From positions 1,120,001-1,184,000 of the forward strand of contig CAVXXK010000001.1 of NCBI GenBank assembly GCA_963765675.1: 64,000 bases of DNA. Reading direction: 5' to 3'. Below are positions 27,695 through 37,620 of the stretch, one piece after another. The DNA comes from an uncultured delta proteobacterium. GTDB lineage: Bacteria; Desulfobacterota; Binatia; Binatales; Binataceae. Numbering within the stretch: position 1 is the stretch's first letter; every line of letters starts with the position of its first letter. Both the position numbers and the translations under genes were made by a program. The notes below the pieces were generated by a model. That model saw nothing but the letters and a program-made list of their open reading frames with translations. It ran no database searches and was not told the DNA's origin.

Positions 27695-27718
27695 GGGTTC
27701 AAATCCCTTCTGCTCCAC
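27695..27718 (+). repeat. attR core
   Basis: Identical to tRNA-Ala 3525-3548. Confidence 0.9.
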
Positions 27719-28191
27719 ACCTCAGTCGCCGCGGTTTCGGACATCGCGGAGAATCTTGCAAAATCTGCGCGTGTGCGCGCGATTCGCGATCGCGCGCGGA
27801 CCCGGAGAATCTCTCCGGCAGCGCAAATGCCCAAAATCTGGCAAAAGCTCTCTGGGCGCGATTTGCCTAGGTCCGCGGATCATCGCCATTCATTCGCCGG
27901 CTCAAGAATGCCGGTGCTGAGAGCCACCCGCCAATATGCTCCTCTCTAGTTTTCTGCTGCCACCCTGCTAGCAAGGCTCATCCGCGCGGCCCAAGCGCTT
28001 ATCGCTCGACTCGTCTTTGGCCGATTCCACTTCCCCGTCTTCCTAGCGTATAGGCTCGACACTTCCTTTTTTCCGCGAAAGTTCAGATCGAGTTCAGACG
28101 AAGTTCAGCCGAAAGGCATTGGCGGCCAGCTTCGACTGCCTTACGATTCGCGTAGCGGGGAAACATCGAATGGCCTCGAGGGGGTTTGATC

Positions 28192-28893
28192 ATGGGCACA
28201 ATCAAGCTGATTACAATGTACGGATCGCCATGGTCGGAGAGGGTCCGATGGGCGCTCGCATTCAAAAAACTGCCCTACGAGAAGCAGAATTACGAGCCCG
28301 GCATCGACGAGGCCGCGGTGAAGAAGTTGACCGGCCAGGCGATGGTGCCTGTGTTGGTCACCGGCGATAAGGTGATTCCCGATTCGAGCGCAATTTTGGA
28401 TTGGCTCGAGGAAACGAGACCGGAGCCGGCGCTGTTACCCAAGTCGGCGAAAGAGCGCGCGATGGTGACGCTATGGGAGGAGATCGCGCTTAACGCGATG
28501 GGGACTCATGGTCGCACATTGATCACCGGGCGCCTGCTCCGCATCGACGATCCTGAAGCGCAAAAAAGCGGAAAGTACTTCGCGGAAAAGTACGGCTACT
28601 CAGAATTTGCGGAAGAGCAGAGCAGGCTCACTGCCATAAGGATCCTTACAAGTCTCAGGGACACGCTAAGCGGGCGTCAATACCTGGTCGGCGACACGTT
28701 CTCTCGTGCCGACCTGACCGTCGCAGCGATGCTGATGCTGTGGAAAGCGGCGCCCCAGGAGTTTTTCGTCTTTACGCCGGAACTGCGGTTCGTTTACCTC
28801 GACCGGCTTGGCGACGATCCTGCGTTCTCCGAGGTATTCGCCTGGCGCGACCGGATGTACAAGGACCATCGCGGCGAAGTGGTCAAGCCGTAG
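28192..28893 (+). CDS. Glutathione S-transferase family protein
   Basis: SPWSERVRWALAFKKL, VPVL, DSSAILDWLE, YLVGDTFSRADLTVAA. Confidence 0.9.
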   Translation: MGTIKLITMYGSPWSERVRWALAFKKLPYEKQNYEPGIDEAAVKKLTGQAMVPVLVTGDKVIPDSSAILDWLEETRPEPALLPKSAKERAMVTLWEEIALNAMGTHGRTLITGRLLRIDDPEAQKSGKYFAEKYGYSEFAEEQSRLTAIRILTSLRDTLSGRQYLVGDTFSRADLTVAAMLMLWKAAPQEFFVFTPELRFVYLDRLGDDPAFSEVFAWRDRMYKDHRGEVVKP

Positions 28894-28909
28894 CGCCCGG
28901 AATCGGCTG

Positions 28910-35334: not shown

Positions 35335-36870
35335 ATGAGTGGCTTCTTGCGATCGATGCAGAGAGTGCGCGTCGCACTATTGACCGCCGTTTTGGTTCTA
35401 TTTGTGGCTGCGTGCGGAGGATCTTCAGGTAGCAACTCGGCGCCGGGAGTCGCCTCGGCCAAATTAGAGTCCGGGCCCTGCCCTTCGCGGGTCGCTTCGT
35501 CTCCAGCTTTCGCCAATGCGCAATGTGGACAGTTGATAGTGCCGGAGAATCGTCACAAGCCGAACGGAAAAACCATTAGCATTTCCGTCGCCATAATTCC
35601 TTCGATAACCCAACCCCCGAAGCATGAACCTCTTTTCTACATAGCAGGCGGTCCCGGCGGCGATGCGATGGGAGACGCAGAGTTTCTGGTTCCAATATTA
35701 AACCAGACCCAGGATCTCATCGTCTCAGCCCAGCGCGGAACCCTGGACGCGACGCCAGCGCTTCTGTGCCCCGAAATCGACGCATTCAACGCCGAGGCGG
35801 TGAGTCTCGTCTACGATGCACCATCGACCGGGACCCTGCACGTCGCGGCAACCAAGGCATGTCACGATCGATTGGTCTCGGAGGGAATTGATCTGAGCGC
35901 CTACAACACGTTTGAGAACATCCAGGACTTCATGGATTTGCGCAGGCTTCTGAAGGTGTCCAAGTGGAGCATCTTTGGAACTTCGTACGGCACTTACGTA
36001 GCGCTCGCCCTGATGCGTATGCATCCGGAGAACCTAGTGACCGTGACCATCGACTCCATCGCGCCCCCCAGCGTGGCGAGCCTCGGATGGACCTGGAGCA
36101 GCGCTGGCGAAGGCTTCAACAATCTGTTTGATGCGTGCGCCGCTCAGCCTTCCTGTGCTACCAAGTACGGAGACGTAAGTAGCAAGTTCACGAGCCAGGT
36201 CCAGCAGCTCGAGGCAAATCCGATAACCATCACGAGCGAGTACACACCAGGTGGTCCGCCGGTTCAGGTCGTACTCGATGGCGGTGCGCTGGTGAACTGG
36301 TTTGTAGCAGGCGGTCGCTCACTTTTCCCGTCGGTACCTTCGGCGATCCAGGAGTTGGTCAACGGTAATCCGGTTCAGATTGCTGCCAACCGCGCCGCCC
36401 TGGCAAACCCGGCGACGGAAAGCACACAGGGGTACGGCTTGACCTATGGGGTGTTTTGCAGCGAATGGATTCCGTTTGAGCCGCAATCAGAAATACTGGC
36501 GAAGGGCCTGATCGCGTTTCCTGACTATCCGGACTCAGTTCTCTCGCAGGCGCCGCAACTTCCGTTCGCGACTGAAGATTGCGCGGTCTGGGACGTCCCC
36601 AAGGCGCGCTCCTCGATCAGAGAGGTCACGACAAGCAGCATCCCGACGCTGGTGATAGCCGGCACTTTCGACGCGAAGACCTCGCCGATGTGGGCGACAT
36701 ACGTAGCTAAAACTCTATCCAACTCGACTACTATCATCATTCCGGGCATAGGCCATCTCGTAACGCCGCAGTCCGACTGCGCGCAGACCGTGTTCAAGTC
36801 TTTTCTCGACAATCCCACCTCCCCAGATACGAGCTGCGTGAATGGGCTAGAACCGCCACCGTTCCAATAG
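35335..36870 (+). CDS. Alpha/beta hydrolase (TAP-like peptidase) lipoprotein, tandem paralog
   Basis: VAACGG lipobox, AGGPG, GTSYG, GTFD, GIGH; colinear with previous gene. Confidence 0.85.
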   Translation: MSGFLRSMQRVRVALLTAVLVLFVAACGGSSGSNSAPGVASAKLESGPCPSRVASSPAFANAQCGQLIVPENRHKPNGKTISISVAIIPSITQPPKHEPLFYIAGGPGGDAMGDAEFLVPILNQTQDLIVSAQRGTLDATPALLCPEIDAFNAEAVSLVYDAPSTGTLHVAATKACHDRLVSEGIDLSAYNTFENIQDFMDLRRLLKVSKWSIFGTSYGTYVALALMRMHPENLVTVTIDSIAPPSVASLGWTWSSAGEGFNNLFDACAAQPSCATKYGDVSSKFTSQVQQLEANPITITSEYTPGGPPVQVVLDGGALVNWFVAGGRSLFPSVPSAIQELVNGNPVQIAANRAALANPATESTQGYGLTYGVFCSEWIPFEPQSEILAKGLIAFPDYPDSVLSQAPQLPFATEDCAVWDVPKARSSIREVTTSSIPTLVIAGTFDAKTSPMWATYVAKTLSNSTTIIIPGIGHLVTPQSDCAQTVFKSFLDNPTSPDTSCVNGLEPPPFQ

Positions 36871-36939
36871 TCGCTCGCGAACGCGAACGGCTTCGACTAG
36901 CTGCTGGACGGGGCTTAGGGTGAATCGCGAAGATGCGCC

Positions 36940-37060
36940 AGCGCAACTCGCCTACGACGAAGCTCTTCGAGACGTAATAGCGATAGCGGCGCCCTCCCTT
37001 TCCTCCTCCTCCATGCACGTGTAGCGGGTCGCCGTTTTCGTCGAATAGTTTGCCCGCGAG
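36940..37060 (-). pseudogene. Remnant of large serine recombinase
   Basis: KGGRRYRYYVS motif typical of the recombinase zinc-ribbon region; no intact ORF. Confidence 0.45.
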
Positions 37061-37620
37061 CGGACTTCGCAGGGCTTCAATCTTGCGTCCATCACCCTGA
37101 CGTGCCTGTCAGGTGTCCACGTGCGCTCGAACCGCGCCACGAATCCAGTCTCGACCGCCTGAGTGGCCTGACCGGGTTCGGATCGCGGCTGACGCGAAAG
37201 CGTGGCGAACATTCTCTCTCCGGATATCCGGTTTCTTCTTGGCCCAAATACTCCGCCAAGTGCGCAGACAATTTAGTCGATGAAAAACCGAAAGGGTGGT
37301 CGAGGTTCAAATCCAGCTTGGACCAGTCTCTCAATTTTTGCACGCTTCGACTCAACCGATGCGTGGCCCATCGGAAACCCGATCGGGAATGCGCAGGGTT
37401 GACGGCTGAGCTGGCGCCCTGCCTTCAATAACCAATCGCATCTCGAAGTCGCGAGCTACGCCTATTTCTGCTGGCTGCTATACGAGGCTGTAACTTTATA
37501 TGGCGGAATAAGTAACTGTGCCGTGTAGAGGACGCCCTTGACATGATTTCTTATTCTTTGCCATTTTGCTTGTCTTGGGTTGGTTCCTGTTGAGTGTAAC
37601 TTAGGGCGCGTGCCGTTAGC

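What the first reader, a model, noticed from the sequence alone, without database searches (positions are those of the whole stretch)
27695..37340. tRNA-anchored tandem cassette array with conserved ends and no integrase of its own
Seen: tRNA-Ala 3'-end copies occur at 27695, 33270 and (degenerate) 37304. The first two are each followed by a colinear homologous element ending in the identical 21-mer GGCGCGATTTGCCTAGGTCCG (27855-27875; 33429-33449), exactly 157 bp after the core in both cases. The second and third copies are each preceded by a homologous ~110-bp element (GGCGA..CTCT..CAAAT..CGCCAA..GACAATTT..TCGATGAAAA; 33169-33280 vs 37204-37314). The cargo between them is unrelated: GST, cyclase and DUF924 in one, two hydrolases in the other. 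Only a serine-recombinase remnant (~36940-37060) is left. Inference: a family of non-autonomous islets that stack at tRNA ends in an integron-like manner, mobilised in trans.
Basis: partly seen in the sequence, partly recalled or inferred. Interest (0 to 1): 0.7.

Follow-up and report, generated by a model that had tools for sequence, protein, structure and literature searches.

The report
Recombinase-less islets stacked behind a tRNA
Two small gene packages behind an alanine tRNA gene are bounded by the conserved end sequences of a widespread family of serine-recombinase mobile elements but lack the recombinase gene; they are likely deletion leftovers that piled up one insertion at a time and may still be moved by intact relatives, which is a variant of known "cis-mobilisable" islands rather than an integron.

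Summary
The ~160-bp left element and ~115-bp right element are the two ends of DUF2924 + large-serine-recombinase (LSR) islands. In relatives the left end directly follows intact tRNA-Ala, -Val, -Met or -Ser genes, and both ends flank intact recombinase modules. This genome has no intact LSR or DUF2924. Islet 2 keeps an LSR fragment and the DUF2924 leader; a third stub follows. The 27695 copy is the right end of a separate tyrosine-integrase element. The 33270 and 37304 copies are likely the islets' own tRNA-mimicking arms, with crossover at the tRNA 3' tip. Recombinase-less units dominate a targeted sample: 23 of 28 end-to-end units show no module. Islet 1 shares both ends and 89% identity with a recombinase-less islet in another genus, but its cargo is mosaic. 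Nothing integron-like was found, and mobilisation in trans is not shown. It works like CIME tandem accretion. This scan's earlier notes saw the same element family on other DNA.

The parts
3475..3550 (+). Intact tRNA-Ala(CGC), the target gene of the whole array, just after galU
   Evidence: ARAGORN; galU Pfam hit
3551..27694 (.). Separate tyrosine-integrase mobilisable element (TrwC relaxase, TrwB coupling protein, type I-G CRISPR-Cas); the tRNA-proximal and so likely newest insertion; not part of the islet family
   Evidence: Pfam; its right end recurs in G003, G007 and G010 in front of different left ends; left end 97.8% identical in G003
27695..27718 (+). First 'tRNA copy': displaced tRNA 3' end (attR core) of the tyrosine-integrase element
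   Evidence: 4 of 4 such junctions match the tRNA exactly from the T-loop to CCAC and diverge just upstream
27719..27877 (+). Left end (L1) of islet 1, inferred attL element-side arm plus ~130 bp of conserved non-coding DNA
   Evidence: Profile hit E 3e-41; 47-row alignment
27878..28014 (+). Left flank shared with the G064 islet; a 2.9-kb inverted cyclase paralogue present in G064 is missing here, with a 3-bp overlap at the junction
   Evidence: 77% over 258 nt from 27767 to 28014
28012..33039 (+). Cargo 1: GST, cyclase-AAA-TPR in three ORFs, DUF924. The shared block ends at the native DUF924 stop; a 1-nt deletion makes the ORF read on to 33100
   Evidence: 88-92% identical to seven copies in genus g32 versus 84% to the same-genus copy
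33040..33267 (+). Right end (R2) of islet 1: short remnant of the DUF2924 leader motif (33055-33074) and the ~115-bp conserved right element (33155-33267)
   Evidence: the leader remnant is weak, 17/20 nt, E 0.003
33268..33292 (+). Second 'tRNA copy': inferred attR of islet 1 (own tRNA-mimicking arm joined to the older element's left end)
   Evidence: Junction comparison; this copy happens to match the tRNA exactly after the T-loop, while 10 of 11 comparable junctions carry 1-6 mismatches there
33293..33455 (+). Left end (L2) of islet 2
   Evidence: Profile hit E 2.5e-45
33478..36884 (+). Cargo 2: two paralogous alpha/beta hydrolases with their promoter region
   Evidence: Pfam; 94% identical block in G003 with no end elements in the 18 kb fetched
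36943..37105 (-). Remnant of the large serine recombinase gene (about residues 280-330)
   Evidence: module profile E 3e-26
37109..37155 (-). Retained DUF2924 leader motif, fused to the LSR remnant by a deletion that removed DUF2924 and the LSR catalytic half
   Evidence: 36/40 nt identical to the G022 leader; profile E 3e-5
37191..37302 (+). Right end (R3) of islet 2
37303..37336 (+). Third 'tRNA copy': arm variant of the right end, followed by a ~17-bp stub of a third left end
   Evidence: Same arm variant in G056, G042, G041 and G084
37339..37407 (-). DUF2924 gene fragment of a third, heavily deleted element
   Evidence: 62/69 nt identical to G009 DUF2924

Best explanation
The two islets carry the conserved left and right ends of DUF2924 + large-serine-recombinase islands but lack the recombinase module, so they are likely internal-deletion derivatives that piled up behind tRNA-Ala by repeated site-specific insertion, inferred to cross over at the tRNA's 3' tip. 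Shown: the ends flank intact DUF2924-LSR modules in relatives; islet 2 keeps an LSR fragment and the DUF2924 leader; a third stub keeps a DUF2924 fragment; the genome has no intact module. Inferred: each newcomer recombines its attP (a tRNA-mimicking arm plus the left end) with the tRNA end near C71-C72, takes the tRNA-proximal place and pushes older elements outwards; the module is lost later; the tyrosine-integrase element came last and used the T-loop. Inferred with less support: islets with two intact ends can still be excised and moved by an LSR from an intact relative, or together with one, and their cargo is exchanged by ordinary recombination.
For: An LSR gene points towards a left end that abuts a tRNA in G005, G009, G010, G022 and others. 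The protein has Resolvase + Recombinase domains and DUF2924 lies upstream. 78 of the 80 best LSR loci have DUF2924 directly upstream, and 43 of 80 have a tRNA downstream on the opposite strand. The right end lies 91-131 bp from an intact or contig-cut module in G008, G139 and G161, and 1.9-2.9 kb from one in G085 and G022. Remnants in the window. No module in G000. Crossover at the tip: 54 of 57 left ends follow CCAC, CCGC or a one-letter variant; four different tRNAs are used with their own acceptor stems intact; 10 of 11 Ala-type right junctions differ from the tRNA in the 8 nt before CCAC, against 0 of 4 for the tyrosine element; 7 of 7 junctions of two other right-end types show a 4-8 bp dyad centred on the CC. 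The same stacks occur at galU-tRNA-Ala in G056, G061, G042, G053, G071, G060, G075 and G041. The order IME-islet-islet-stub matches the published rule that the most decayed elements lie farthest from the target gene (PMC7563491, passages).
Against: Islet 1 has no detectable LSR or DUF2924 coding remnant, so its descent from an autonomous element rests on its ends and a weak leader match. The window's own second junction matches the tRNA exactly, which a T-loop crossover would also give. The crossover base is inferred from alignments, not from an empty/filled pair: no empty site with an original flank was found. 37 of 80 LSR loci show no downstream tRNA within the stretch held, and only 16 of 80 hit this left-end profile, so the ends are lineage-specific. 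The 28 units were picked by similarity to these right ends and paired by nearest left end, so the 23:2:3 ratio is not a population estimate.
Confidence: 0.8

Rival explanations
1. The islets are an actively spreading non-autonomous family: two ends capture genes and are routinely excised and re-inserted in trans by LSRs of intact relatives.
For: 23 of 28 delimited units lack any module trace. The window's R2 matches 19 of 47 genomes of genus g32 at up to 93% but 0 of 10 of its own genus. Islet 1 shares its left flank, cargo and right end with a module-less islet in G064 (88.9% over 5.4 kb) while the hosts' galU regions are 76% identical. Four-fold-site identity is 75-82% in the cargo against 51-56% in galU. 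Module-less units sit directly at the tRNA in G056, G061, G042, G060 and G041.
Against: The cargo tree puts the window with G079, a copy without nearby ends, and rejects pairing it with G064 (AU p 7.7e-7). The left flank is only 77% identical to G064. One shared g32 islet (G042, G056, G067; 93-97%) sits outermost and looks vertically inherited. There is no helper in this genome, the cyclase is broken, and no circle junction was seen.
Confidence: 0.35
2. The islets are dead scars. The ends persist only because they are recent or because the cargo is useful; cargo arrived inside intact elements or by homologous recombination, and the modules then decayed in place.
For: Partial LSR remnants next to left ends are common (G003, G013, G007, G009). 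The cargo-1 block occurs inside an intact tRNA-Ser element in G066 and without ends in most of the other genomes examined. Cargo genes are decaying here.
Against: G000 and G064 share the same cargo-to-right-end junction at the DUF924 stop and both lack the module; independent decay would not easily give that. Non-coding right ends stay 85-93% identical across genera.
Confidence: 0.4
3. An integron-like cassette array in which short ends are recombined by an integron-type tyrosine integrase.
For: Tandem arrangement, variable cargo, and cargo blocks that are tightly bounded: cargo 1 ends at the DUF924 stop, cargo 2 ends 14 bp after a stop.
Against: Each unit has two different long ends tied to an LSR module. 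The left end gives only a 6-pair consensus fold of -3.6 kcal/mol, with no attC-like hairpin. The only nearby tyrosine integrase belongs to a relaxase-bearing element with its own att sites. Cargo has its own promoter regions and either orientation.
Confidence: 0.03
4. The left end is a structured non-coding RNA or a small gene co-transcribed with the tRNA, and the tandem copies are incidental.
For: It follows the tRNA directly and contains a GC-rich dyad; one 5-bp stem shows 17 compensatory cells, nearly all from one column pair.
Against: No Rfam match at E up to 1. The RNAalifold covariation term is 0.01. Stops occur in 22-47 of 57 sequences in every frame, with 1-nt length changes.
Confidence: 0.07

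Closest known systems
CIMEs (cis-mobilizable elements) and tandem accretion in streptococci (PMC5704250 and PMC7563491, passages read)
   Same: Decayed elements that kept attL/attR but lost their recombination genes; 1.2-13 kb with cargo (here 1.3-13 kb); stacked with an IME; the most decayed lie farthest from the target gene.
   Different: Classical CIMEs derive from tyrosine-integrase ICEs/IMEs and are defined as moving only in cis. These derive from relaxase-less DUF2924-LSR islands, the neighbouring IME is of an unrelated recombinase class, and the retained ends are 160-230 bp.
Dehalococcoides ssrA genomic islands with the CcrB-like serine integrase DsiB (PMC3146451, passages read)
   Same: Tandem islands at the 3' end of a stable-RNA gene; serine recombinase on the reverse strand next to attL; many units without the module (15 module-less versus 16 with); variable cargo.
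   Different: The target is tmRNA; the module has six genes, including a second recombinase DsiA; the boundaries are described as ~20-bp repeats. No DUF2924 and no long conserved end elements in the passages seen.
Large serine integrases (TP901-1, Bxb1, A118/LI, phiC31, SPbeta SprA; CcrB)
   Same: The helper protein has Resolvase + Recombinase domains, matches TP901-1 at E 1.7e-30 by profile and Bxb1/SprA by fold; junction dyads centre on a 2-bp core.
   Different: Far below the CcrB cut-off (150 versus 900 bits); a constant DUF2924 partner; an extra ~90-residue helical C-terminal domain with only weak HTH-like matches (Z 5.8-6.4); ends three to four times longer than the ~50-bp att sites recalled for phage integrases.
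Integron gene-cassette arrays (recalled, not read here)
   Same: Tandem units with variable cargo and no recombinase of their own.
   Different: No IntI, attI, attC or Pc; a different enzyme class; units are multi-gene island remnants with two distinct ends.

Membership tests
CIME (cis-mobilizable element) | Derives by deletion from an integrative element | tested here: met
   Islet 2 keeps an LSR fragment and the DUF2924 leader between the family's ends; for islet 1 only the ends and a weak leader match show it
CIME (cis-mobilizable element) | Retains both attachment ends, lacks functional recombination and transfer genes | tested here: met
   Both ends present; no intact LSR, DUF2924 or relaxase inside
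CIME (cis-mobilizable element) | Parent is an ICE or IME (has conjugation or mobilisation genes) | tested here: inconclusive
   The minimal parents seen are left end-LSR-DUF2924-right end with no room for a relaxase (G139, G008); larger parents were not screened for relaxase or oriT
CIME (cis-mobilizable element) | Transfers only in cis with an adjacent related ICE/IME | not testable with these tools
   The adjacent IME uses a different recombinase and moves without the islets in G003, G007 and G010; no mobility assay possible
DUF2924-LSR tRNA-end islands (parent family) | LSR with Resolvase + Recombinase domains, DUF2924 directly upstream | tested here: met
   For the intact relatives; 78 of 80 loci. 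In the window only fragments remain
DUF2924-LSR tRNA-end islands (parent family) | Conserved left end abutting a tRNA 3' end or an equivalent junction | tested here: met
   54 of 57 left ends; both window copies hit the profile
Integron cassette array | IntI integrase with attI next to the array | tested here: not met
   The nearby tyrosine integrase has Arm-DNA-binding and SAM-like domains and belongs to a TrwC element; no IntI family hit in NCBIfam
Integron cassette array | attC hairpins separating single promoterless genes | tested here: not met
   No conserved long hairpin; multi-gene cargo in both orientations
SCC/Ccr or Dehalococcoides Dsi islands | CcrA/B/C-type recombinase pair and rlmH or ssrA target | tested here: not met
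   Scores far under the Ccr cut-offs; single LSR plus DUF2924; tRNA targets
iOriT / oriT-only integrative elements | Carries an origin of transfer | not tested
   Only the abstract of 10.64898/2026.01.13.699239 was seen; no oriT search was run

The most novel reading that the evidence does not exclude
Binatia-like soil bacteria host a MITE-like, recombinase-free lineage of gene-capturing islets. Two long DNA ends, read by an LSR with an extra C-terminal DNA-binding domain and/or by DUF2924, are enough to pick up host genes and ferry them between genera in trans to the 3' tips of several tRNAs. These islets outnumber their helpers and are invisible to integrase-anchored island finders.
Probability: 0.35. 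Interest if true: 0.7.

Novelty: new variant of a known kind. Interest (0 to 1): 0.45.

Why it matters
Recombinase-less islands are missed by pipelines that require an integrase (TIGER/Islander 'insists' on one; PMC12424338, whole text read). The two end profiles make a large hidden part of this lineage's accessory genome mappable: DUF2924 is present in 72 of 165 genomes of the order. They also give a concrete, testable att pair for an LSR family that targets the tip of several tRNAs, which would be useful for integration into conserved neutral sites. The general logic (accretion, then decay to CIME-like units) is already known.

Tried and rejected
Pattern search for the right end over 165 genomes: the pattern was mistyped, did not match the window itself and is uninformative. 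A tblastn extension of the LSR remnant to 37228 was rejected; the DNA match stops at 37105 and the next stretch is leader. Rfam: 0 matches. RNA structure: weak consensus; my hand-written structure was mis-registered, so one search is uninformative; a column scan found only 5-bp stems. Coding potential of the ends: stops in all frames. A/T periodicity peaks at 9 bp (left) and 12 bp (right); noted, not interpreted, since the shuffles ignore relatedness. Excised circles: four soil runs held 0.18-0.29 of the words; joints from 33289 or 33311 back to ~27770 at 85% likeness can come from any relative's right/left junction and were rejected as evidence. The single-sequence LSR model was unusable (pLDDT 35). 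The alignment model (pLDDT 80) confirms an LSR but leaves the C-terminal domain inconclusive. No complex prediction or Atlas result was obtained, so the role of DUF2924 stays open. The idea that the tyrosine integrase carried islet 1 by using the 33270 core was set aside because G067 has the same exact-match junction; that stretch was not checked for a neighbouring tyrosine element. CRISPR spacers gave no full-length match to the islets or modules. Literature: 9 searches. DUF2924 occurs in only 3 Wolbachia papers (search listings only). Durrant et al. (PMC10083194, passages) has no 'tRNA' in its main text; its supplements, and the TIGER database itself, were not seen and may list these LSRs.
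Full report
Observation. The 21-mer occurs at 27855 and 33429, 157 bp after the core in both, and nowhere else in the genome. BLAST of the ends against the whole genome finds only these copies: left pair E 2.5e-19, right pair E 5e-7. Cargo annotation is as stated. The record titles of the closest recombinase loci name Candidatus Binataceae/Binatia, so the window is probably from that group (inference).

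Context. The intact target is tRNA-Ala(CGC) at 3475-3550. Between it and 27695 lies a 24-kb element with a tyrosine integrase, TrwC, TrwB and a type I-G CRISPR-Cas locus. Its right end recurs in G003, G007 and G010, each time in front of a different left end. In 4 of 4 such junctions the sequence equals the tRNA from the T-loop to CCAC and diverges just upstream. So the 27695 copy is that element's attR, and L1 was most likely attached to the tRNA itself before it arrived.

What the ends belong to. G000 has no Recombinase-domain or DUF2924 match (completeness 95.6%). In relatives the left end directly follows intact tRNA-Ala(CGC), Val(CAC), Met(CAT) or Ser genes and is followed by a ~560-aa LSR gene pointing at it, with DUF2924 upstream. 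Among the 80 best of 528 LSR loci in the genome collection, 78 have DUF2924 directly upstream and 43 have a tRNA downstream on the opposite strand; only 16 hit my left-end profile, so the end sequence is lineage-specific. The right end lies 91-131 bp from the module in G008, G139 and G161 and 1.9-2.9 kb from it in G085 and G022. Left ends are also preceded by other, unrelated right-end types, so several sub-families share the target.

Decay in the window. Islet 2 reads left end, hydrolases, LSR fragment (36943-37105, 73% to G009), DUF2924 leader (37109-37155, 36/40 to G022), right end. One deletion removed DUF2924 and the catalytic half of the LSR, and the C-terminal part is gone as well. After the third junction come a ~17-bp left-end stub and a 69-bp DUF2924 fragment. 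The variable region seems to run on to about 59140, where homology to the flank in G009 starts. Islet 1 has no coding remnant, only a weak leader match.

Crossover. 54 of 57 distinct near-full left ends are preceded by CCAC (42), CCGC (10), CAAC or CGAC; the other 3 are truncated or degenerate. Of 11 Ala-type right junctions, 10 differ from tRNA-Ala at 1-6 of the 8 bases before CCAC, often at the same two positions; the window's 33270 junction is the one exact match. The 37304 variant recurs in G056, G042, G041 and G084. In 7 of 7 junctions of two other right-end types a 4-8 bp dyad is centred on the CC equivalent to tRNA C71-C72. I infer that these 'tRNA copies' are the elements' own arms and that exchange happens at the tRNA tip, which fits a serine integrase's 2-bp core (established knowledge). 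The exact base is not proven.

How common are module-less units? In the stretches fetched there were 45 right-end hits. For 28 a left end lay inward: 23 showed no module trace, 2 a short remnant, 3 a full module. One of the 23 has a weak remnant, and one row spans two units. Of the other 17, 5 had a module inward and 1 a fragment. The sample was chosen by similarity to these right ends, so the ratio is indicative only. Cargo of 35 ORFs from such units is diverse: proteases, Crp regulators, dehydrogenases, beta-propellers.

Did islet 1 move without its enzyme? For: R2 matches 19 of 47 genomes of genus g32 (best 93%) and 0 of 10 of its own genus. Window 28012-33387 is 88.9% identical to a module-less islet in G064 that also shares the left flank and the same cargo/right-end junction at the DUF924 stop, while the galU region is 76% identical. 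Cargo four-fold sites are 75-82% identical to seven g32 copies, against 51-56% for galU in five g32 genomes. A tree of 14 copies rejects grouping the window with its own-genus copy G001 (AU p 4e-74). Against: the same tree pairs the window with G079 (100/99) and rejects pairing it with G064 (p 7.7e-7); the left flank is only 77% identical; the block also sits inverted inside an intact tRNA-Ser element in G066 and without ends nearby in most other genomes checked. So horizontal acquisition of the cargo is well supported, but the islet is a mosaic and transfer as one recombinase-less unit is likely rather than shown. Cargo 2 exists without ends in G003 (94%). No circle was seen.

Nature of the long ends. 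There is no Rfam hit, only a weak consensus fold and no conserved reading frame. They are best read as double-stranded protein-binding arrays (inference). Candidates are DUF2924 or the LSR's extra C-terminal helical domain (residues ~470-560 of the model), which has only weak HTH-like matches. This is untested.

Comparison. The arrangement IME-islet-islet-stub at a tRNA works like CIME accretion (PMC5704250; PMC7563491; passages) and like the Dehalococcoides ssrA arrays, where 15 islands lack a serine-integrase module (PMC3146451; passages). It fails the integron tests. I found no paper describing DUF2924-LSR islands or their ends in 9 searches; subscription papers and supplements were not covered. 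Earlier notes of this scan describe the same family and similar leftovers on other DNA; sequence and relatives look-ups returned nothing.

Verdict. A real, well-defined array: a new variant of a known kind. Deletion derivatives of DUF2924-LSR islands, 0.8. Active trans-mobilised family, about 0.35. Interest 0.45.

Noticed in passing
window 3551-27694: Tyrosine-integrase mobilisable element carrying a type I-G CRISPR-Cas locus (Cas3, GSU0053/54, Cas2, Cas4-Cas1) with an array of about 41 repeats, plus PIN toxin-antitoxin genes; close copies of its ends in G003, G007 and G010.
   Followed up: partly
window 37109-37155; loci L120-L148 and others upstream of DUF2924: A conserved ~35-bp leader motif ending in CCAGTC precedes most of the 53 DUF2924 genes examined; its last bases repeat the start of the left end, so it may be a recombinase autoregulation site.
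   Followed up: partly
L031:8930-9199 (G005): A small ~89-aa protein with two CxxC motifs and no Pfam or NCBIfam hit often lies between the left end and the LSR, or beyond DUF2924.
   Followed up: no
L161:4001-5683, residues ~470-560: The LSR family has an extra helical C-terminal domain beyond what aligns to Bxb1, A118 or SprA; weak matches to DeoR and SopB DNA-binding domains (Z 6.4 and 5.8).
   Followed up: partly
L268 (G066:C2:589414-602382) and other g32 genomes: tRNA-Ala(CGC) and tRNA-Ser(GGA) lie 4-6 kb apart around galU, facing away from each other, and each usually carries its own stack of these elements.
   Followed up: no
window 37408-59140: About 22 kb of further likely accessory genes (kumamolisin-like protease, beta-propeller/Ig proteins, three paralogous ORFs at 48763-50926, DsbA, M28 peptidase) lie before the fur-catalase flank; no further intact end was detected.
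   Followed up: partly
G000 C6:2090-3491: A second tyrosine integrase, 51% identical to the window's, sits at tRNA-Glu on contig C6.
   Followed up: no
junctions after CC[A/G]C in 57 left ends: The four bases after the core vary (CATC, CATT, ACCT, ATTT, CAAC and others), so many target tRNAs lose an encoded CCA; two near-identical islets (G042, G056) differ in these bases at the same flank.
   Followed up: no
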